Part shown: positions 2,465 through 13,603 of the stretch, piece by piece | Layout: each line of letters opens with the position of its first letter | How positions within the stretch are numbered: the first letter of the stretch is position 1 | IMG/VR virus record: IMGVR_UViG_3300037422_000298 | DNA length: 64,000 nt | Source: a virus | Lineage: Duplodnaviria > Caudoviricetes | Strand: one strand, 5' to 3' | Position numbers and translations under genes: made by a program | The notes under the pieces: model-generated | What the model was told of the DNA's origin: nothing | Seen by the model: only the letters and a program-made list of their open reading frames with translations | The model's database searches: none

Positions 2465-4658
2465 AAACTAAACCTCGCAAGCGCGTCACGTGCTTTTCCT
2501 GTAGCCGTCGGCGAATCAAGTACGCTGACGGCCTGTGTGAGACCTGTCATCGTGTTGCCGTCAACGTCGGCCGCCGTCTTGCGATCATCTTCGATGGCGC
2601 GCGATGGCACGTTCGGTCGATTCGGCTGATCGAACACGATCTGGATCTCGATGAGAAGATCTATCGATGCGACAAGCCGATCAGCAACGATCACCGCTCG
2701 ATCGAAGACGCAGTCGCTTCAGCAAAGAGGTACCAACGTGTCGCGTGACTTCAAGCCGATCGATCCCAACAGCGCCCCATCGACACGCAACGCTCGAACG
2801 AAAGATCCAGGAGAAGCGTGAACCGCTACATCATGAAGCCGCCGATGCGCCTCGACGCGCACGGCCACTCGCTCGAACGCTTCATCGAACGCTGGTGGCC
2901 GTGGACACCCACAGAGCTGCGCCTACGTAGCCCGAACAAGAAGGCTGCAGCGCTGCAGCCGCGACTCGCGGAGCTGAAGATGGCGGTCGCTTCGCGTGCG
3001 TACCACGTCGAGAACATCCCTGACGAAGATCAGAGCATCTGGGCATGGACGGTCTGTGCCGGGCCCAACCAAGGCCGCACGGCGTTGATGGTCGTGTCGC
3101 AAGACGGCACAGTGCGAACCGTGTTGCCGCCAGAAGCGAAACGTCCCGCGAACCGTCGGAGGTCGTCGTGATAAAGAAGGTCTACGAGATCGTTACCTTC
3201 GAAGATGCCGGGTACTGGATGCTGCTCGAAGACGGCATCGGGATGGCCAAGAGCAAGTCACGGAACGCGCTCAAGCGCATCCGTGATGCACTGCAAACGG
3301 CGCAAGAGACCGGCCTGATCGGTTTGACCGTCGAGATCGAGGGCGTGAAACGCGGCATCGTGCAAGCGATCAGCGACCGCGCTGACTTGATCGTTCGGCG
3401 TACGGGCGTCCTGCAGACTGACAATCTCGAAGTCTGGCCAGTGCATGCATGTCGTCTCGTCGAGCCCGACAAGATCGACACGCCGACGCCGTGGAACGAT
3501 CCAGCAATTGGCGTCATTCCGGCTATCAAGTTGCTCGAACGTGTATTGGCGTGCGGCATCGATACGATGGGGCACGAACTTGAAACCGTCGCCGACGACA
3601 TCAAGAAGTTTCTCAAGGCACGAGAGGACGCACAGCCTACGCCATGAAGACCAACCAAGATCAAGAACATGTCGACGAAGAGGCGCCCACGCGCACGGTG
3701 CCGTGTAGCATCCATCCGCTGCATCGCGTGAAAGTTCGCACCGACGGCTCGCGTTCGGGCTGCGTGATGTGCGAAGACGCAATCGCTGACCTGACTCGAA
3801 AGGACGGACGATGACCACTGACTACCGTCGAGCAATGACTGCACTCGCGCTTGAACTACCACAAGAAGTTCATCGGCACATCGCAGATCTGTTCGAGCCA
3901 CTGATCGCCGAACACGAGACGAAAGCGATGTCTGTTCTGCAGCCGTGGGTCATGAAGCTCCCGCTTCGCGCGCAGGGCACACTCCTCACTGGCTTTCGTG
4001 GTTGCGATCTCGCACCGAAGAATCCTGTCACGATCGACGAGAGAAACGGCTGCTCGACGGGCGAAGACACCGTCCCGCGTCAGCTCGTCGCGTACTTGCG
4101 TTTCCTGACGCTCGTAGCTGCGGATCCGCGCGAGATCGACGTCCCCGGCGCGTGGTTTCAATCCAAGCCACCGGAGAAGTGGAAGCCGTCGCAGCTCTCG
4201 CACTATCCACTGCACTGGTACGGCCACCTCATGCACTGCTTCGAGGTCGTTGCCTACCTGCGGCCGATCGACGACGAGCACACCGATCGCGCGATTGGTA
4301 TCTACACGCGGCTCGTGCGCGCGCTGCATCTGAACCCTGAGACGAAGGCGCAGATGCTCGAACGCCTGACCGAAGACCGCATCGCGAAGGGCGACGTCGT
4401 CTCGTGAAGGACGAGAAGAAGGCTGCGCTCGAAGCGAATGGCTGGAAGGTCGGCGACGCTGCGCAGTTCTTGGAGATGTCCGAGGCCGAGAAGCAAGCGA
4501 GCCGTCTCATCCACAAGTACGGCCGCGACGGTGCGCTCAAGGCCGTCAAGCAGAACGTCAAGAAGGCCGTCAGCGAGGCCCAGGAAGAATTCTGGGAAGC
4601 CGTTGGCGACCTGATCGAAGAGACCTGCGAACGCCCCGAACAGGAGAACGTCTCGTGA
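2461..4658 (+). CDS. Run of small hypothetical genes (2461-2748, 2818-3171, 3168-3647, 3644-3814, 3811-4407, 4404-4658)
   Basis: Overlapping stop/start junctions (ATGA/GTGA); consistent codon usage. Confidence 0.55.
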
Positions 4659-5353
4659 CCAAGCTCATTCTCGCGCTCGACGTCCCGAGCTACGACGACG
4701 CGATGCAATTCGTCGAGTCGATCGAAGGCAATGTACACCTCGACTGGGTCAAGGTCGGCCTGGAGCTGTTCATCTCCGACGGTCAGCGCGTGATGGATGC
4801 AATGTCGAAAGCCGGGTTCAACATCATGCTCGATCTGAAGCTGCACGACATCCCGGAGACCGTCGCTCGCGCGACGGCGCGCGCAGCAGACCTTGGTGCA
4901 GACATGCTGACGATTCATGCCGCGGGCGGCCCGGCGATGATCGCAGCGGCGAAGAAAGCTGCGGGTGACACCAAGATCCTCGCGGTGACGGTTCTGACGT
5001 CGCTCGATGAAGACGACCTGGTCAAGATCGGTCACAGCCCGACGCCGCACAAGACGCTCGTACGCGACCTGGTTCTCCGGCGACTCCGACTGGCCGAAGA
5101 CAACGGTGCCGACGGCGTCGTCTGCTCGCCGCTCGAAGTTCAGACCCTCAAGATGAACGTGATCCGCGGGATGTTGTTCGTGACGCCTGGGATCCGTCCA
5201 TCGGGCGGCGACACGGGCGATCAGAAGCGCGTCGCCACGCCAACGGGTGCCCGCGAAGCGGGCGCGAGCTTCATCGTTGTCGGGCGGCCGATTCGTGACG
5301 CGAAAGACCGGGTCGCGGCCGTAAAGGGCATCCTGGCGGAGCTGACCACGTGA
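4655..5353 (+). CDS. pyrF: Orotidine-5'-phosphate decarboxylase
   Basis: LILALD, KVGLELF, catalytic DLKLHDIPETV, VTPGIRP, DQKRVATP, IVVGRPI. Confidence 0.97.
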   Translation: MTKLILALDVPSYDDAMQFVESIEGNVHLDWVKVGLELFISDGQRVMDAMSKAGFNIMLDLKLHDIPETVARATARAADLGADMLTIHAAGGPAMIAAAKKAAGDTKILAVTVLTSLDEDDLVKIGHSPTPHKTLVRDLVLRRLRLAEDNGADGVVCSPLEVQTLKMNVIRGMLFVTPGIRPSGGDTGDQKRVATPTGAREAGASFIVVGRPIRDAKDRVAAVKGILAELTT

Positions 5354-6245
5354 TGACGCTCAGGAAGCTCCTCGACCAGATCGTCGACGACGGCATCAAG
5401 GCCTGTAGCGAGTCGTACAAGGACGACGCGAAGAAGCGCGAGGGCGCGATTGCAGGCTTCGAGGCATGCCGCAACAAGTCCGTGTTCGAGCTGCGACAGA
5501 TACTAGGTGTGGCGAGCAACGCTGCAGACGTGGCACGCGCCGTCGACCGCGAGAACTACTGGTACCTGCGCTGCTTCCACGCCGAGGTCGAGTGGGTCTG
5601 CAACGTCGTATCGGCGTGCCTGCAGAATCAAGGGCTCGATCCCATCGTCACGCCGATGCGCGGCTACTTGAAGGCTGCCGAGATCGTCGGCGTCGACGGC
5701 GACACGACACTCAAAGAGTTCATCGAACGTCGACAAAACTGATGACAAGCGAACGCCACAACACGATCTGGTCGCTCGAAGTTGCCGAGCGGCGCTTTTT
5801 GCGCGCGCACGGTTGGACGCTCGAACCGAACCGCGGTTGGATCCCGCCTGCGAACTTTCCATTCAAGCGTCGAGGTGCGTACTCACGCGGTCACGCCGTG
5901 AATGCGCAGAAGCAGCTTCTGTATAACCCGATGTTTGGCGGCGATCGCCTGGAGCAGCTGTAGGGGAGAACGATGACGTTTCAAGTACGACGCAACACGG
6001 CCGACGGAATCCTCGACGAAGTCGCTCTCGGTGGCGCGATCAAGATGGAGACGCTGCAGGAGTTGCTCAAGCTACTCGGCGAGAAGACGGATTACTTGTT
6101 CCACATCGCCGTCGAGATTCACACGCCGATGATGCTCAAGACGATCGACAACGAAGGCGACGCGCTCGACACGATCAGTCGGCTGCGCGCCGCTCCTGCG
6201 AAGAGCATCAAGCCTGCACCGAAGAAGTCGTCGCGAAAGAAGTGA
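5350..6245 (+). CDS. Three hypothetical genes (5350-5742, 5742-5963, 5973-6245)
   Basis: Coupled ORFs; GGGGAG RBS before 5973. Confidence 0.6.
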
Positions 6246-6295: not shown

Positions 6296-6356
6296 CATAC
6301 TTTCCGCGATGTCACTAGGGGCATCGAGAACAACGAGCAGGGAGAACGAAGAGCAC

Positions 6357-7166
6357 ATGCGTACGCAGCAACAGCATCAGAGCAACGGAAACGGACACGT
6401 CCCCACGCGCGGTGACGTCATGAAGCGCGGGCGCGCAGCACTCGTCGACACCGACGAAGACGCGCCGCCCAAGCGGCGCGGGCGCCCGCCGAAGATGACG
6501 CCGTCGCCGGAAGTGATCGAGCTGCCCGCGGCGAAGGGCAGGAAGGGCAAGGCTGCCAAGGGTGCCGACAAGGGCGAGCTGTCGATCCCGGAGCTGGAGA
6601 CGGCCGAGATCACGTTCACGGTTCGCGGCCTCACGTCGCTGATCGTCCACCGCTTCGGCGAGAAGTCGCGCAAGCAGATGGAAGACAACCAGCAGGGCGT
6701 CGCGCGTCACAAGAAGGCGCCCAAGGTTCCCGAAGACGAATTCCGCAGCTCGCTCTACGTGATCGACGCGAAGAAGGGCATCTACGGCTTTCCGGCGTCG
6801 GGCTTCAAGAAGGCGATGGTCTCGGCGTGTCGCTACGCCGAAGGCGTCACGATGACGAGGATGCTCGGCGCGTTCCACATCATCGGCGATCTGCTGCCGA
6901 TCAAGGGTCCGCCGCCCAAGATGCGCACCGACGTCGTGCGCGTCGGCAAGTTCGGTTCGAAGACCTCGGACATCCGCTACCGCGGCGAGTTCACGGACTG
7001 GAGCGTCGACGTCAAGATCCTCTACAACGCCAGGGTTGTGAACAAGCAGGTGCTCGCTCACCTACTCCACCTCGCAGGCTTCTCCGTCGGCATCGGCGAG
7101 TGGCGTCCCGAGAAGTCGGGACAGTTCGGCATGTTCGAGCTGGCGAACAAGTCGGTCGGTAACTAG
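6357..7166 (+). CDS. Solo RAMP/Cas7-like protein (Vipr-like effector of the adjacent repeat array)
   Basis: TVRGLTSLIVH first strand, YGFPASGFKKAMVSA helix, RYRGEFTDW, C-terminal G-rich loop AGFSVGIGEWRPEKSGQFGMF; disordered basic N-terminus; GGAG RBS before ATG 6357. Confidence 0.8.
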   Translation: MRTQQQHQSNGNGHVPTRGDVMKRGRAALVDTDEDAPPKRRGRPPKMTPSPEVIELPAAKGRKGKAAKGADKGELSIPELETAEITFTVRGLTSLIVHRFGEKSRKQMEDNQQGVARHKKAPKVPEDEFRSSLYVIDAKKGIYGFPASGFKKAMVSACRYAEGVTMTRMLGAFHIIGDLLPIKGPPPKMRTDVVRVGKFGSKTSDIRYRGEFTDWSVDVKILYNARVVNKQVLAHLLHLAGFSVGIGEWRPEKSGQFGMFELANKSVGN

Positions 7167-7182
7167 TACTTCGTCGACGAGA

Positions 7183-7214
7183 AACGCCGTGATCGCAGCA
7201 GCGATCACGGCGTT
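7183..7214 (+). terminator. Perfect 14-bp hairpin between the RAMP gene and the array (terminator or processing site); contains the GATCGC-N4-GCGATC motif
   Basis: AACGCCGTGATCGC-AGCA-GCGATCACGGCGTT followed by a pyrimidine-rich tract. Confidence 0.6.
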
Positions 7215-7279: not shown

Positions 7280-9810
7280 GGCAGTCAAGGTGCGGCGCTG
7301 CAGGGCTCGGCGTATCAGGGTCTGGCTCTGTAGGGTCCGGCAACGGTATGGTCGCGCACGGCAGTCCACGTACGGCACGGCGTTGTGTGTTTCGGCGTCG
7401 CAAGCTACGGCAGTCCAGGTCCGTTGCGGCTTCGTTCGTCGCGGCGCGGAAAGGTCGCGCTCGGCAGTCTCGGAATGTCAGTGCAGGTCTGGGTCAGGCC
7501 GCGTTTGGCCCGGCTGCGTTTGGCCCGTCAAGGTGCTGCAGGGCAGTCATGGTTCGGTGCTGCATCGCACTGCTTGGTGTCGTCGGGCTCGGTCCGACGC
7601 GTCGAGGTTAGGCAGTCTTGGTAGGGCTCGACGTGGTCCGTTCGCGCAAGGATCGTTCTGGCTTGGCGCGGTTTCGCAGTCTCGGTCGGGTGAGTCGCCG
7701 CTTGGTGCCGTTGGGCATCGCGCGGTCAGGCACGTCGAGGCAGTCATCGTTTGGTGAATCAGCGCTTGGTTCGTTGAGGCATCGTGCGGCATCGCAGTCA
7801 GGGAATCGCTGGGCAACGCTGGTCCAGGCAACGCACCGCTCGGCATCGCCGTCGAGGTTTGGCGCGTAATGGTTCGTCAAGGCTACGCATGTTTGGGTTG
7901 GGCCGTCTCGGCATGTTTGGATCCGGCTAGTCAGTGTACGGCTAGGCGCCGCGCGGTATGGAGAGGCAGTCAGGGTCTCGGCGCGGCAAGTCAGTGTACG
8001 GCTAGGCGCCGCGCGGTATGGAGAGGCAGTCAGGGTCTCGGCGCGGCAAGTCAGTGTACGGCTAGGCGCCGCGCGGTATGGAGAGGCAGTCAGGGTCTCG
8101 GCGCGGCAGTGCTGCGCCAGGTAGCGCATGTTCTGGCCGGGCTGTCAGGGTTTCGCATCGCATCGCAGTGCGCGATACGGCAACGTCCGTTTCGGCGGTG
8201 CGTGGTAGGGCAGTCTGGTTGCGGCAGCGTCTGTTCAGTCAAGGCATGTTGTCGTTCGGCAGTCAGGGCAAGTTCAGATCCGGCGTTGCTCGGCTCGGCG
8301 TGCGCCCGTTTCGTCACGGCCAGGTGCGGTTGGGCCGTCGTGTCGAGGCATCGCTACGTCCGTTCCGTCAGGGCGCGGCACGTCGGGGCCGTCCAGGTTC
8401 GGCGCGTCAGTGCTGGGTCCGACTTTGCGGGGCAGTGTCCGGCGGGGCATGACAGTCGAGGACAGGCTGGTCACGGTTGGTTACGGTCGTGCCTGGTTTG
8501 GCAGTCATGGTTTGGTTCGGTACCGCTGGTCTTAGTTGGTCATGCCCGGTCTCGACGTGGTTCGGCAGTCGCGTCTCGGTATCGGCAGTCTTGGTAGGTC
8601 AGCGTCGGTCTTGGCAGCGTTCGGTGTGATCGGGTTCGTTACGGCAGTCTGGGTCCGGCGAGGTTTGTCAACGCAGTGCACGGCAACGTACGTCTCGGTG
8701 GGGCAGTCAAGGCACCGCATCGCGGGTCTAGTTGCGTCTCGGTTCGTTTCATCTCGGCAAGGCATGGCCGTCTTGGCAAGGCATCGCCCGTTGCGGCGCC
8801 GTCCGGCCAGTTCTGGTTTGGTAGTGCGTCTTCATGGCAGTCGTGGCTTGTTCCGGCGCGGCCCGTTGTGGTGTTTCATTGCTTGGTAGGGCAGTCGCGG
8901 TTCGTTTCGGCAGCGCGCGTCTGCGTCCGGCATTTGCTCGGTTGGTCGCGGCAGCGGTATGGCCGTCGTGGTCCGTCGGCGTTTGTTCGGGCTAGTTATC
9001 GTCTCGCGCGGCTCGGCAGTTTCGTCTGGGATCGGTTCGGCCTGCTGGGGCAGCGCGTGGCATCGCATCGCATGGCCGTCTTGGTTTCGCACGTCAAGGC
9101 TCGACAGGTTCCGGCTAGGCGCCGTACGGTGCGGCCGTCTAGTCACGGTTGCGCTGGTCGCGGCAGTTTTCGGTTGGTCGCGGTAGTGCATCGTCCGGCA
9201 TCGGCGCGGCAGTCCCGTCGGGGCGTCGTCTCGCTTCGCAAGGCAAGGTCAGGCGAGGACTCGTTTGGCGAGGCAGTCATCGCCAGGTTCGTCGAGGCAG
9301 TGCGAGGCATGGATCGGTTCGGTGGAGTTCGGCGCGGCAGTCGCGGTAGCGCGGGGAAGTGCCCCGCTAGGCAAGGCGTCGCTCGGCGCGGTCAGGCAGT
9401 CCCGGCGCGTCACGCTTTGGCAGCGCTTGGCGGGGTACTGTGTGTCGAGGCAGGGCCGTCTGGGTTAGGTCCGGCGTGTCGCGGTTCGGTTCTTCACGCG
9501 AGGGTGCGGTACGGCATCGCAGTCTTGGATCGTCTCGGCATGGCCGGTTCCGGCAGAGCAGTTCACGGCTAGGTACGACGCGGCAGTCGGTCATGGTCAG
9601 GTGAGGATTGCATCGCAGTGCGCGGCGCCGCCGGGCGTGGCTGTCTTGGTCAGGCGAGGCTCGGTCTCGTGCGTCGCGGCGAGGTTTGGCAGTCTCGGCG
9701 CGGTGGCGTACGGCTCGACAAGGTTCGGCAAGGCCCTGCAGGGCAGTCATGGTTAGGTCCGTCGGGGCGTGATCCCGTGCGTCGCGGTCCGGCACGGCAG
9801 GCATGGCAAG
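7280..9810 (+). ncRNA. Array of ~42 putative guide-RNA units: GGCAGTC separator + NN + n x (GGY-like triplet + NN)
   Basis: Separators (GGCAGTC, GGCCGTC, CGCAGTC, GGCTGTC variants) at 7280, 7360, 7409, 7463, 7542, 7611 ... 9688, 9742; 31 of 41 spacings are 5n+4 (49/54/59/64/69/79); no credible protein in any frame. Confidence 0.85.
7929..8108 (+). repeat. Exact 60-bp tandem triplication inside the array
   Basis: AGTCAGTGTACGGCTAGG...GCGCGGCA x3. Confidence 0.97.
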
Positions 9811-9839
9811 TCGAGAGTGACTTGTGCTAGAGTTGATCG

Positions 9840-10379
9840 ATGGCGCGCGCAGCAACAAGGCAGTCTCGATCGCGGCAGCGATCTACGCATTGGACGTATC
9901 ACTTCAAGGCCGTCGAGGGCAGCCGGTACACCGATCAGGATGCACAGCGTATCGGTCCCGAGTTGACGCGTATCGCGCAACGCGATGGTGAAATTCGCCC
10001 ACAAGCCGTCGTCGACGAAGCACGCTCGCGGCGCTCGCCGTTTCACCGACATTTCCAATGGGACATCCAGAAGGCCGCCGAACAACACTGGCTCGACACT
10101 GCTGGACGGTTGATCCGCGCGATCAAGATCGAGGTCGTCAGCGGACCACAGCGTGCACCCAAGGAAGTCCGTGCGTTCGTCAAGATCGATCGCGCGACCG
10201 GTTATCGTCCGACCATTGAAGTGTTTCAGCGCGACGACTACCGCAACGCGGTGCTCTCGCGTGCACTCGAAGAGCTGGAAGTCTGGAAGAAGCGCTACGA
10301 GAACTTCGTCGACTTCAGCGAAATCTTCGGCGACGTCGCGCCGATCATTGTACAGGCTCAACAGCGGCTGCGAGCGTAG
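9840..10379 (+). CDS. Conserved phage protein, probable accessory of the RAMP/array locus
   Basis: IRPQAVVDEARSRRSPFHRHFQWDIQKAAEQHWLDTAGRLIRAI motif; immediately downstream of the array. Confidence 0.7.
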   Translation: MARAATRQSRSRQRSTHWTYHFKAVEGSRYTDQDAQRIGPELTRIAQRDGEIRPQAVVDEARSRRSPFHRHFQWDIQKAAEQHWLDTAGRLIRAIKIEVVSGPQRAPKEVRAFVKIDRATGYRPTIEVFQRDDYRNAVLSRALEELEVWKKRYENFVDFSEIFGDVAPIIVQAQQRLRA

Positions 10380-10382
10380 CCA

Positions 10383-12150
10383 GTGGAGCCGCGGAGCGGC
10401 CGTTGGCGTCTCGCGTTGCAGAGTGAGCTGTGCGAGTGTTTCGACTGTGCGAGTCCGACGTGTGACGAGCGCTTGTGGATCGCGTACAGCGTGCTCGATC
10501 GTTTCATCTGCGCGTTGTGCGGCCATCAGGCGAGCGATCGACGTACGAACATCACGGCGTGCAAACGCCGTTGTGGGTACGTGTTCCAAGAAGATCTTCC
10601 GCGCGCTACGGTGGTCCAGCGATGAGCGTTTCCAAGTGTCCACACGGCATCTTCACGCACAGCATCTCGAACCGCTGCCCGATTTGCTTCGGCGTCGACG
10701 CGTACAACAGCGACGCGATTCCGATCGTCGGCCACGGCAACGGTTGGTTGCTGCACAAAGGCGACTTGGTCTGTCCTGAGTGTGGCGGTCCGCGTACGGC
10801 AGGCTGGGGTGCGTACGACAACAGCAAGCGCAGTACGCCACCCGACCCGAAGAATCCGAACGACTGGCCGACGACGTGTTACGCCTGCACGAGCGGCAAT
10901 TCGAAGGCTGCGATCTTGAAACGTACTGCGCACGAAGCTCAGCGCGGCGTTCGCAAGACACCCGGAGCAAAGTGATGGGACGTCGAACCTACGAAGCCAA
11001 GATGATGATCGTCACGCCCGACATGGACACCGGGATGATCGTCTTCGCTAACGAACACGTGCACCGTGACATCGACGAGCTGGGCTCGCGCATGCTGGAA
11101 GACATCCTCGGCAAGCAGCAGCCACCCGATGCAGGCGTCTGGATCTGGGAAGGCAAGCAGGTTTGGTCATCAGGCTACCGCGGTCCTGACGGTGACTACG
11201 ATACCGACGTCGACTACCGCGACGGCACGTGGCGTCGTCCTACGGAGACCGAGATCGCACAGCTCGTCCGCGGCGAATCACCGTGGCCGAGGCCGCCAGC
11301 GGAGGACGCTGATGACTGAAGCAGAACGCGATCTGTTGATGATGGCCAACTACTACGAACCGGACCTCCCTCAAGCGTTGGCCAAAGCGATGGCGAGTGT
11401 CGACGTAGATCAGTTGCGAGCCCTCGCGCTCAAGTACATCAACGCGACCAAGGTGCTCGTCGACGGTGTAGACACCGTGCTGAGGCCGCGATCGTGAAGA
11501 CGTACCGCGCGATGCGCGTCACCCGAGCACCGATCTCGCCACCACTCTGCGCACAACACTTCAAAGAGACCGACGATGTGCTTCTCAAGGCGGATGACGT
11601 TGAAGTCGAAGAGCTAGACGATCCCTACTGCATCATGTGTCAGACAGCTGCTGCGCCCGACCGCACGTGCGGGAGCTGTGGCAAACCGCTCCACCCAAAC
11701 TGGCATGCGGTGTATTGCTCGAACGAGTGCGCGATCGCTGACTTGTGATAAGGTCCGCGGCTCGCATGAGCCCGGGATCTACAGTCGCAGCAGCGATCGA
11801 CGCAGATTGCGAAGCCTTGGAGCTTCTCGCCGTCGAGGTCCAGCTCAACGGCGCGACATCGCTCGCTAGCCAAGAGCTACTTGTGATACTGTCGGCGCAT
11901 GCTCGCCGCCGTGGAATTGCCCGAGAAACTCTGTGTGGTCCGCTGGACCGGACGTGTACGGCTGCACGTGGAAGTGCTGACCGTCTGCGGTATGAAGATG
12001 GACGCTGCTGATGGTGTCGTGCAGGTCCCAGACTTCATCTTCGACGGCCGACCTGTACTCAGCATCAGCGACTTCGGTGGCAAGGGACGTCGCCCGCTCA
12101 AAATCTGCGACGACTGCAAGAACGCAGTCGTCGCAGCGATCAAGGGCTAG
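10383..12150 (+). CDS. Run of small hypothetical/Zn-finger genes (10383-10625, 10622-10975, 10975-11319, 11312-11497, 11494-11748, 11899-12150)
   Basis: Coupled ORFs with CxxC motifs. Confidence 0.5.
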
Positions 12151-12596
12151 AAGCGCCGAGCGCGACTGATCCCGAAGCCGATCGCGGCGATCCCTACAGC
12201 GATCGCGACGCCGATTCCGATCTTGGTTCCGGTCGACAGTCCCGCCTGTCCGCTCGTCACCCCCGCGCTCGTGTTGTTGACGTCCGCGACTACAGGAATG
12301 ATCTTGTCGGCAGCGCCACCCTGTTGAACAGCGAGTAGCCCGACTTCGGTGCGATCGTCAGCCGTCGCGATCGACTGTAAGAGCGTTCGAACGTCTTCGT
12401 TCGATGTCCCGTTGGCCGCTTTCGCGATGCGGTCCGCGAGCTGCGTCTTCTCGTCTTCCGTGAGGCCAAATAGATCAATGCCGCGCACACCGTTCACGCG
12501 GAATCGCGGATCGACTGGCGGCAGGATGTTCTCGACGTAGAACGGGACCACGGCGTACGGCCACGGATACGGTGCGCGAGGTTCGAGTGCGATCAT
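12147..12596 (-). CDS. Membrane-anchored virion protein, paralog of 15254-15862
   Basis: FGLTEDEKTQLADRIAKAAN shared with FGALTEDDKNKLAEQVKNAAN; C-terminal TM + RARRF. Confidence 0.7.
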   Translation of the reverse strand: MIALEPRAPYPWPYAVVPFYVENILPPVDPRFRVNGVRGIDLFGLTEDEKTQLADRIAKAANGTSNEDVRTLLQSIATADDRTEVGLLAVQQGGAADKIIPVVADVNNTSAGVTSGQAGLSTGTKIGIGVAIAVGIAAIGFGISRARRF

Positions 12597-13603
12597 ACTG
12601 CGAGCCTTTCTCGTCGCACGTAGCGACGGCCGAATGCACTTGGATCTGGTTTCACCCACGGTGGTGGCGGTTCGTCCATGTAACGCAGGTGCATCTTGGC
12701 CGCCTTATAGGCGAGGTAGATGTCCTCTTCGGAATACCCCTCGTCGACCAGCTGATCGTGGATCTCTTTCTTGGGCACCTCATACGAGAGCGCTTGGGCG
12801 ATGCGGTTGATCAGTCGCTCGTCGACGATGCCGAGACCTCGGCGCTTTCCGAACGGTGCTTGTGCGGCGCGCCTCGCAGCACGCAGCACCAACCAGCTGA
12901 GTCCGACGAGGCCAACGACGGCAACGACGCCGATCGCGATCTTGGCGCCTGCTGACGTATCGGTCGTCAACGCATCTGGCGGCGTGGTCAGCGCGACGGC
13001 TAGCTGCTTGCCTGCGATCACGGCGCCGGGCTGCGTGAAGTGTACGCCATCGCTAGCGCGCCCCGCGACCGCGGTCAACGGTCGTGCATCGATCGTGCGA
13101 TCGGCGCCGAAGACCGTACGCAACGCGTCCAACATGATCGGCGCGCCTTGCGTGTAGCGGGCGTCTTGGTACGTCGGCGGTCCGATCGCGAAGATTTCGA
13201 CGTTACCGAGCTTGTCGCGGTACGCCTGTTTGATGCGCGTCAAGTCTTGAATCGTCCGTGCGATCGCCGCCGACGACACGCCGTTGTCGATGTCGTTGGT
13301 GGCCAACATGATCACGATCTTGGTCGGCCGAAACGCGACATCGTTGGCGATCAAGTTGCTGGCGTCTTCGTTGATGAAAAAGCTGCGAGCCGATCGTCCG
13401 ACACGTGCGTCGATGCGTACAGCTTGCGCCTGTAGATCTTCGAGCAGGTGTGCTGCCATCACCGCGCCCGGCGCCGATGACAACGCGGGCGCGGTACCAC
13501 TCCGGTCGCCCGCGCGAACATCGATGATCGTGGGGCCTGCATCGGGACCTGAGTGCGAGAGGCTGTCACCGAAGATCAAGATGCGTTCGCCTGCGACGTT
13601 CAC
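12593..13603 (-). CDS. SGNH/GDSL esterase with C-terminal TM anchor
   Basis: ILIFGDSLS block I, VGRS block II, LATND block III, SDGVHF block V; TM segment. Confidence 0.85.
   Translation of the reverse strand: MNVAGERILIFGDSLSHSGPDAGPTIIDVRAGDRSGTAPALSSAPGAVMAAHLLEDLQAQAVRIDARVGRSARSFFINEDASNLIANDVAFRPTKIVIMLATNDIDNGVSSAAIARTIQDLTRIKQAYRDKLGNVEIFAIGPPTYQDARYTQGAPIMLDALRTVFGADRTIDARPLTAVAGRASDGVHFTQPGAVIAGKQLAVALTTPPDALTTDTSAGAKIAIGVVAVVGLVGLSWLVLRAARRAAQAPFGKRRGLGIVDERLINRIAQALSYEVPKKEIHDQLVDEGYSEEDIYLAYKAAKMHLRYMDEPPPPWVKPDPSAFGRRYVRRERLAV

What the first reader, a model, noticed from the sequence alone, without database searches (positions are those of the whole stretch)
7280..9800. The NN dinucleotides form a wobble-skipping code: reverse-complemented they read as codon positions 1-2 of protein genes
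I decoded about 30 regular units by hand: collect the NN pairs, reverse-complement, read each pair as NNx. Ambiguous pairs (D/E, K/N, I/M, F/L, H/Q) were resolved by eye. Most give protein-like strings: 7847 QQIYLEIAKS, 8140 LTPEGLVALIMKL, 8500 ETERIQKQVEKI, 8584 VERTELKRLLK, 9272 AEPEEISLSEWI, 9336 WAETLYGLPLA, 9688 LGLELEVPAE. The common NN pairs TC, AG, AT, GC, TT and AC correspond to the prefixes GA (D/E), CT (L), AT (I/M), GC (A), AA (K/N) and GT (V). Inference: the guides are antisense to coding sequence and skip every third base in register with the wobble position, so synonymous mutation cannot give escape. A few units (9208, 9639) read equally well in the sense direction.
Basis: partly seen in the sequence, partly recalled or inferred. 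Interest (0 to 1): 0.97.

Follow-up and report, generated by a model that had tools for sequence, protein, structure and literature searches.

The report
Large phage VIPR guide-RNA array

Summary
Window 7280-9812 (+) is a non-coding array of about 514 Y-N-N-G-G pentamers in about 37 units. Each unit opens with a 4-nt C(A/C)GT punctuation.

The decoding is real. The unit at 9456-9519, reverse-complemented and spaced NN-x, matched 54 viral contigs exactly (about 4e-4 expected by chance). All 54 matches are in frame and read IVALVDEATGYQ in P63C-family ORFs.

NN composition tracks codon positions 1-2 only in the antisense reading (r=0.78). 28 of 33 units favour pairing with the sense strand.

The upstream gene is a Vipr-family RAMP protein (E 5.8e-12 to the solved SUSP1 Vipr; Csm3/Cas7 fold). 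The residues reported to read GGY are conserved.

This is therefore a VIPR system (bioRxiv 10.64898/2026.04.26.720920, .720927 and 2026.10.15.759431). Those papers already report the one-base skip rule, the alignment with wobble positions and the block to escape by mutation.

It is a new member of a known kind. It differs in having a very large array without 3' tails, a pan-phage P63C target and a strong strand bias.

Nine other guides found no real target by exact search. The scan's first-stage readers also noted this locus in an overlapping window of the same genome.

The parts
6309..7166 (+). vipr gene: 285-aa Vipr-family RAMP protein (disordered basic N-terminus, RRM core, thumb, G-loop GIGEWRPEKSGQFGMF)
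   Evidence: The profile of 36 homologs hits PDB 36pp_D 'SUSP1 Vipr protein' at E 5.8e-12. The AF2 model (pLDDT 80) matches Csm3/Cas7 RAMPs by Foldseek (E about 1e-6, prob 1.0). At least 894 homologs exist and none has a Pfam domain. It also matches phrog_4652.
7183..7214 (+). 14-bp G+C-rich hairpin followed by a T-rich run, between vipr and the array; terminator-like or a processing element
   Evidence: Found by the consensus scan. Its function is not tested.
7280..9812 (+). vrRNA array: about 514 YNNGG pentamers in about 37 guide units, mostly 9-15 pentamers each. Units abut directly and are separated only by a 4-nt C(A/C/T)GT step (GG-CAGT-C). There is no 3' tail.
   Evidence: No Rfam family or ribozyme matched. 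No ORF with coding periodicity is present.
9456..9519 (+). Guide unit (CCGT + 12 pentamers) whose NN series is complementary to codon positions 1-2 of IVALVDEATGYQ in P63C-family phage genes
   Evidence: 54 exact gapped matches, all in frame. The orthologous unit is retained in the close relative L079 at 8614.
9210..9273 (+). Guide unit that by composition reads in the sense direction, so it would pair with the template strand
   Evidence: The antisense-minus-sense log-likelihood is -7.1 bits, the clear outlier. An exact scan of viral contigs found no target.
7924..8108 (+). Three exact tandem copies of a 60-nt stretch inside the array (recent unit duplication)
   Evidence: TRF reports period 60, 3.1 copies, 99% matches.
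9840..10379 (+). vap-like accessory gene, 179 aa, with a conserved SP(L/F)HxxF(E/Q)WD...AAE motif
   Evidence: Homologs (26-88% identity) lie next to vipr in all 12 related loci that hold a full-length vipr match, and in Gordonia phage ODay (gp20). It matches phrog_15946. It has no Pfam domain and no informative fold match.

Best explanation
The region is the guide array of a phage-encoded VIPR (Viral Interference Programmable Repeat) system. It is probably transcribed from the + strand and cut or initiated at the GG-C(A/C)GT-C steps into vrRNAs of about 50-65 nt (inferred).

By homology with the solved SUSP1 system, one Vipr protomer (gene 6309-7166) binds each pentamer. It sequesters the GGY triplet through the thumb arginine and the G-loop, and presents the NN dinucleotide.

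The filament then pairs NN-by-NN with a DNA strand in which every third base is flipped out. This blocks transcription of the bound gene (mechanism taken from the literature, not tested here).

Because the skipped base coincides with the codon wobble position, one guide can cover synonymous variants of a conserved protein motif. The guide at 9456-9519 matches IVALVDEATGYQ of P63C-family genes on phage contigs whose sampled stretches run from 35% to 67% G+C.

The array is therefore most likely a weapon of a large phage (its genes are seen on contigs up to about 241 kb) against competing phages and prophages. The function of the downstream vap-like gene is unknown.
For: Array anatomy matches the published vrRNA definition of 9-16 YNNGG repeats (bioRxiv 10.64898/2026.04.26.720920).

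The Vipr homology is significant: E 5.8e-12 to the SUSP1 Vipr chain 36pp_D. In that alignment SUSP1 R138 corresponds to R225 here, and D177/W178/R179 correspond to E264/W265/R266. R225 and R266 are invariant in the family alignment. The model has a RAMP fold.

The 1-nt skip rule with the wobble register is demonstrated for one guide: 54 of 54 hits are in frame against about 4e-4 expected. Eight other gapped patterns of 20-26 specified bases returned zero hits, so the background is essentially nil.

The skipped positions in the 54 targets have a mean pairwise identity of 0.38 and form 43 distinct 36-mers.

The module (vipr + punctuated YNNGG array + vap-like gene) recurs in related loci L055-L062, L079 and L082 and in Gordonia phage ODay, across GC 39-66%.
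Against: Only 1 of 10 guides tested found a real exact target.

No sigma-70-like promoter was found.

The array lacks the approximately 40-nt 3' tail and pseudoknot of the characterised type II vrRNAs, so biogenesis must differ.

The strong sense-strand bias is not predicted by a purely double-stranded-DNA, strand-indifferent mechanism.
Confidence: 0.93

Rival explanations
1. It is the same VIPR-type ribonucleoprotein, but this tail-less subtype acts mainly on mRNA, or needs the non-template strand exposed in a transcription bubble. It would not bind either strand of duplex DNA indifferently.
For: 28 of 33 guides are by composition complementary to the sense strand. The mean log-likelihood (3.3 bits) is at least as high as expected if all were (2.1-3.1 bits across unit lengths 9-13). 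The one validated guide is complementary to the coding strand in all 54 targets. The structural preprint shows that Vipr-vrRNA can pair with ssRNA, though the filaments are then mostly incomplete (10.64898/2026.04.26.720927).
Against: The published systems silence from either strand and require a DNA third strand for complete filaments. Natural SUSP1 and P. fulva targets lie on both strands (10.64898/2026.04.26.720920). Strand here is inferred from composition for all guides but one.
Confidence: 0.15
2. The array is a protein-binding RNA scaffold or sponge in the manner of TRAP or CsrB. The GGY triplets would be the only functional part and the NN merely spacers, so the protein-like decodings would be pareidolia.
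For: Triplets spaced by two bases recall the 11 (G/U)AG repeats bound by TRAP (my own knowledge). Nine of ten decoded guides found no real exact target.
Against: A 24-base gapped pattern from one unit hit 54 independent phage contigs, all in frame on one conserved motif. NN composition follows codon positions 1-2 only in the antisense reading. In the close relative, NN diverges less (10%) than the Y position (16%), so NN is under constraint.
Confidence: 0.02
3. It is a degenerate CRISPR array or a protein-coding pentapeptide-type repeat.
For: A RAMP gene lies next to a repetitive array.
Against: There are no 20-40-nt direct repeats separating spacers. There is no lag-3 periodicity and the period is 5, which is coprime to 3. 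Gene calling with a GC3 criterion found no cas1- or cas2-like gene, and no CRISPR-type direct-repeat array lies near the locus.
Confidence: 0.01

Closest known systems
VIPR systems (Vipr protein + vrRNA), as described for Escherichia phage SUSP1 and a Pseudomonas fulva prophage (type II); bioRxiv 10.64898/2026.04.26.720920 and 10.64898/2026.04.26.720927
   Same: It has a homologous Vipr RAMP protein with the GGY-reading residues. Its guides are YNNGG tandem repeats of 9-15 units. Targets follow NN-x with the skipped base on the codon wobble position. It is phage-encoded, has one accessory gene, and targets other phages.
   Different: There is no conserved 3' tail or pseudoknot of about 40 nt. 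Guides abut head to tail with only a 4-nt C(A/C)GT step. There are about 37 guides in one 2.5-kb array, against 4 in SUSP1. The Vipr has a long basic N-terminal extension. Guides are almost all complementary to the sense strand. Relatedness of the accessory gene to vap1-6 could not be tested.
'Staggered' vrRNA arrays with 1-nt overlapping vrRNAs (fig. S18 of 10.64898/2026.04.26.720920)
   Same: [quoted passage not shown] That fits the 4-nt step, which breaks the 5-nt register by one base at every GGCAGTC.
   Different: The figure and its loci are not available to me, so identity of architecture is an inference. According to the text, that architecture was not among those the authors confirmed by small-RNA sequencing.
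SUSP1 vrRNA4 targeting of the F5 satellite recombinase (10.64898/2026.10.15.759431)
   Same: A guide reads only codon-determining positions of a conserved protein segment, so synonymous drift does not give escape.
   Different: That footprint is 6 units (18 bp) within one satellite family of E. coli. Here it is 12 units (36 bp) matching a motif shared by phages of very different base composition (35-67% GC).
Class 1 CRISPR Cas7/Csm3 backbone filaments
   Same: The RAMP fold matches (Foldseek E about 1e-6 to Csm3). One protomer binds each guide segment, and a thumb breaks the duplex periodically.
   Different: The guide period is 5 nt with 3 bases sequestered and 2 paired, instead of a 6-nt period with 5 paired. 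There are no repeats and spacers, no cas1/cas2 and no nuclease partner.

Membership tests
VIPR system | Vipr protein: a minimal RAMP homologous to characterised Vipr | tested here: met
   The profile A1 matches PDB 36pp_D 'SUSP1 Vipr protein' at E 5.8e-12. The AF2 model matches Csm3/Cas7 chains.
VIPR system | Residues that read GGY in SUSP1 Vipr (thumb R138; G-loop D177, W178, R179) | tested here: met
   In the HMM alignment they correspond to R225 and E264/W265/R266. R225 and R266 are invariant and E264 is at least 90% conserved among 36 homologs. D to E is a conservative change.
VIPR system | vrRNA made of 9-16 tandem YNNGG repeats with variable NN | tested here: met
   There are 470 clean pentamers, with Y 95%, G 75% and G 76%. 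Units are mostly 9-15 repeats.
VIPR system | Natural targets obey the 1-nt skip rule (NN-x) | tested here: met
   The unit at 9456 gives 54 exact matches with a single skipped base. Skips of 0, 2 or 3 bases were tested only inside the window and gave nothing above shuffled controls. Nine other units gave no real exact hit.
VIPR system | Skipped base falls on codon position 3 of coding targets | tested here: met
   54 of 54 hits are in frame and translate to IVALVDEATGYQ.
VIPR system | An adjacent vap accessory gene | tested here: inconclusive
   A conserved 179-aa gene travels with vipr in all 12 related loci that hold a full-length vipr match, and in phage ODay. No sequence of vap1-6 was available for comparison. 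It has no Pfam domain or fold match.
VIPR system | vrRNAs are expressed, processed and co-purify with Vipr; the complex binds dsDNA and silences transcription | not testable with these tools
VIPR type II (SUSP1-like) architecture | Each vrRNA ends in a conserved 3' tail of about 40 nt with a hairpin or pseudoknot | tested here: not met
   Units abut with only a 4-nt step. No structured RNA family was found. This is therefore not the type II architecture.
CRISPR-Cas | Direct repeats of 20-40 nt alternating with spacers, plus the adaptation genes cas1/cas2 | tested here: not met
   There is no such repeat family. The flanking genes examined have no cas domains.

The most novel reading that the evidence does not exclude
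This tail-less, GGCAGK-punctuated VIPR subtype may be strand-specific. Nearly all of its roughly 37 guides pair with the sense strand, which would mean it acts on mRNA or on the non-template strand of transcribed genes rather than on either strand of duplex DNA. It may also be specialised in 'family-wide' guides aimed at invariant protein motifs shared by unrelated phages. That would be a broad-spectrum interference strategy beyond the clade-specific targeting published so far.
Probability: 0.2. Interest if true: 0.6.

Novelty: new member of a known kind. Interest (0 to 1): 0.42.

Why it matters
The principle (a non-contiguous, wobble-skipping RNA guide code) is already published, so this finding does not open a new field.

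It does independently confirm that principle on unrelated DNA. It also adds a striking natural example: one 12-unit guide matches the same conserved motif in 54 phage contigs that share only 38% identity at the skipped bases.

With about 37 guides the array is many times larger than the four-vrRNA SUSP1 locus. It belongs to the tail-less architecture that the authors did not verify experimentally.

Its strand bias poses a testable question about mechanism. Cultured relatives with the same module give a route to experiments: Gordonia phage ODay (module inspected here) and the mycobacteriophages that carry Vipr homologs.

Tried and rejected
1. Self-targeting. All guides of at least 9 units were scanned against the window with skips of 0-3 bases. 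The best sites were no better than for shuffled guides.

2. Convergence of other guides on the P63C-bearing phages. Scans of the 54 target loci (521 kb) and of five complete GC-rich target contigs (228 kb) were at background. Only the 9456 unit matched.

3. Exact gapped-pattern scans of nine further guides.
- Viral contigs: 8502, 8585, 8892, 9210, 9274 and 8142 all gave 0 hits.
- Metagenome contigs: 8389 and 8963 gave 0 hits.
- Genome contigs: the 'Walker A' unit 8837 gave 3 hits. All lie among stop codons outside ORFs, so they are chance matches.
- These scans cannot allow mismatches, so the absence of hits is weak evidence.

4. TRAP-like scaffold. This was my first working hypothesis and it was dropped.

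5. Fold of the vap-like protein. Foldseek on the PDB found nothing at E <= 0.001. VIA-align found only generic helical-hairpin matches with Z of 6.3 or less. Pfam and the PDB sequence search found nothing.

6. Rfam. No match, and no hammerhead between units.

7. Whole genome and sequencing runs. Neither was available.

8. Other YNNGG arrays elsewhere in the window. None was found at 21 of 24 consensus positions over 8 units.

Full report
**What is in the sequence**

Between two + strand genes (6309-7166 and 9840-10379) lies a 2.5-kb G/T-rich stretch. It has no coding periodicity but a strong period of 5. Identity at lags 5, 10 and 15 is 0.38-0.40 against about 0.25 at other lags, whereas the flanks show the lag-3 signal of coding DNA.

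Dynamic-programming segmentation gives 470 five-mers, 37 four-mers, 6 six-mers and 1 three-mer. The five-mers have the consensus Y-N-N-G-G (Y 95%, G 75%, G 76%), and all 16 dinucleotides occur at the NN positions.

The four-mers are almost all C(A/C/T)GT within GG-CAGT-C. They divide the array into about 37 units of mostly 9-15 pentamers. A 60-nt stretch is present in three exact tandem copies.

**Is the decoding more than pareidolia?**

Three tests bear on this.

- Composition. Reverse-complemented NN frequencies correlate with the codon position 1-2 frequencies of 51 genes of the window at r=0.78 (permutation p about 1.5e-4). The sense, complement and reverse readings, and readings against codon positions 2-3 or 3-1, give r between -0.64 and 0.52. 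Part of this signal could come from mononucleotide preferences alone, so I did not rest on it.
- Targets. The unit at 9456-9519 gives the pattern ATNGTNGCNCTNGTNGANGANGCNACNGGNTANCA (24 specified bases).
  - An exact scan of viral contigs returned 54 loci where about 4e-4 are expected.
  - All 54 are in frame in open reading frames of 163-477 codons and translate to IVALVDEATGYQ, within a conserved block ...GIVALVDEATGYQ..R.
  - Five of six such ORFs carry Pfam P63C (PF10546) just downstream of the motif.
  - The target stretches range from 35% to 67% G+C.
  - The 12 skipped bases have a mean pairwise identity of only 0.38, and there are 43 distinct 36-mers.
- Background. Eight other gapped patterns of 20-26 specified bases returned no hit at all. 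A 20-base pattern gave three hits in 596 Gb of genomes, all outside ORFs. The background is therefore essentially nil, and the 54 in-frame hits cannot be chance.

**Orientation**

A per-unit log-likelihood compares the antisense reading with the sense reading. It is positive for 28 of 33 units of 9-15 pentamers, with a mean of 3.3 bits.

Simulated guides cut from the window's own genes give 78-83% positive and a mean of 2.1-3.1 bits when all are antisense. The data therefore fit nearly all guides pairing with the sense strand.

**What the system is**

The upstream 285-aa protein belongs to a family of at least 894 unannotated proteins. A profile of 36 members matches one solved chain, 36pp_D 'SUSP1 Vipr protein', at E 5.8e-12. 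The AF2 model (pLDDT 80) matches Csm3/Cas7 RAMP subunits (Foldseek E about 1e-6).

This led to three 2026 preprints.

- 10.64898/2026.04.26.720920 describes VIPR systems.
  - They consist of a Vipr RAMP protein plus vrRNAs of 9-16 YNNGG repeats.
  - Targets follow a 1-nt skip rule, with the skipped base overwhelmingly on wobble positions.
  - The complex binds double-stranded DNA and silences transcription; natural targets are competing phages and satellites.
  - There are seven types, including 'staggered arrays' of vrRNAs overlapping by 1 nt.
- 10.64898/2026.04.26.720927 gives the structures. One protomer binds per repeat. GGY is sequestered by thumb R138 and G-loop D177/W178/R179, NN is presented, and the third target base is flipped out.
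- 10.64898/2026.10.15.759431 shows that the codon register prevents escape by mutation.

In the HMM alignment the SUSP1 residues correspond to R225 and E264/W265/R266 of this protein. These are invariant or nearly so in the family.

**Comparative evidence**

Nine viral contigs encode Vipr relatives (36-49% identity over the best segment, GC 39-66%).
- In seven of them (L055, L056, L058-L062) a GGCAG(G/T)-punctuated YNNGG array lies next to the gene.
- L057 ends before the array would begin, and L063 holds only a partial match.
- Related contigs share some units and differ in others, so whole units are gained and lost.

A homolog of the 179-aa downstream gene (26-88% identity) is found next to vipr in all 12 related loci that hold a full-length vipr match. 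It lies either before or after the array.

A 95%-identical Vipr (L079) sits beside an array of about 47 units.
- Many of these are orthologous to units here and differ by single NN changes or by insertion or deletion of whole units.
- Across aligned pentamers the Y position differs most (16%), NN less (10%) and GG least (7%). NN is therefore constrained, as expected if the targets are conserved.

Cultured phages carry relatives too (Gordonia, Mycobacterium, Escherichia and others). In Gordonia phage ODay the Vipr homolog is gene 19. It is followed by a tail-less three-unit array and then gene 20, which is a homolog of the 179-aa protein.

**How this member differs from what is characterised**

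- There is no 3' tail or pseudoknot; units abut with a 4-nt step. This probably corresponds to the published 'staggered' architecture, but I could not see that figure.
- There are about 37 guides in one array, against four in SUSP1.
- One guide targets a motif shared across very different phages.
- Guides show a strong sense-strand bias, whereas published targets lie on both strands.
- The accessory protein has no recognisable fold or family.

**Limits**

- Nine of ten guides tested found no real exact target, and the collection scans allow no mismatches.
- No guide targets the window itself or converges on the P63C-bearing phages.
- Expression, processing and binding could not be tested.
- No promoter-like site was found.
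- The VIPR type could not be assigned.

**Verdict**

The phenomenon is already known (VIPR, 2026 preprints). This locus is a new, unusually large member with some features worth following up.

Noticed in passing
window 4655-5353 (+): A phage-borne orotidine 5'-phosphate decarboxylase gene (Pfam OMPdecase, E 4e-59) lies three genes upstream of vipr. It is conserved in the same place in the close relatives L079 and L080.
   Followed up: no
window 9840-10379 (protein P0121): The protein collection records this exact protein on a contig of 241,025 bases. The element is therefore probably a jumbo phage of about 240 kb. No whole genome is held for the window.
   Followed up: no
window 12593-13603 (-): A GDSL-lipase-like gene (weak Pfam hits, below cut-off) lies a few kb downstream of the VIPR locus. 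It is conserved in that position in L079 and L082.
   Followed up: no
L087 (Gordonia phage ODay MW534375.1, record 10343-11608): In this cultured phage the vipr-array-vap module lies between the tail assembly chaperone genes and the tape measure gene, next to two HTH genes. The genes are annotated only as hypothetical proteins and the array is unannotated.
   Followed up: partly
L055, L056, L061 (arrays at about 5118-5530, 7518-7950 and 1478-1950): In low-GC relatives the NN pairs GA and TA (TGAGG, TTAGG) are very frequent. Several units begin with the same first two or three pentamers (for example TGGGG TGAGG). This could be a conserved 5' segment rather than guide sequence.
   Followed up: no
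window 7183-7214 and 9859-9880: A perfect 14-bp hairpin follows vipr. A further GGCAGTC lies just inside the start of the downstream gene. Neither role is known.
   Followed up: no
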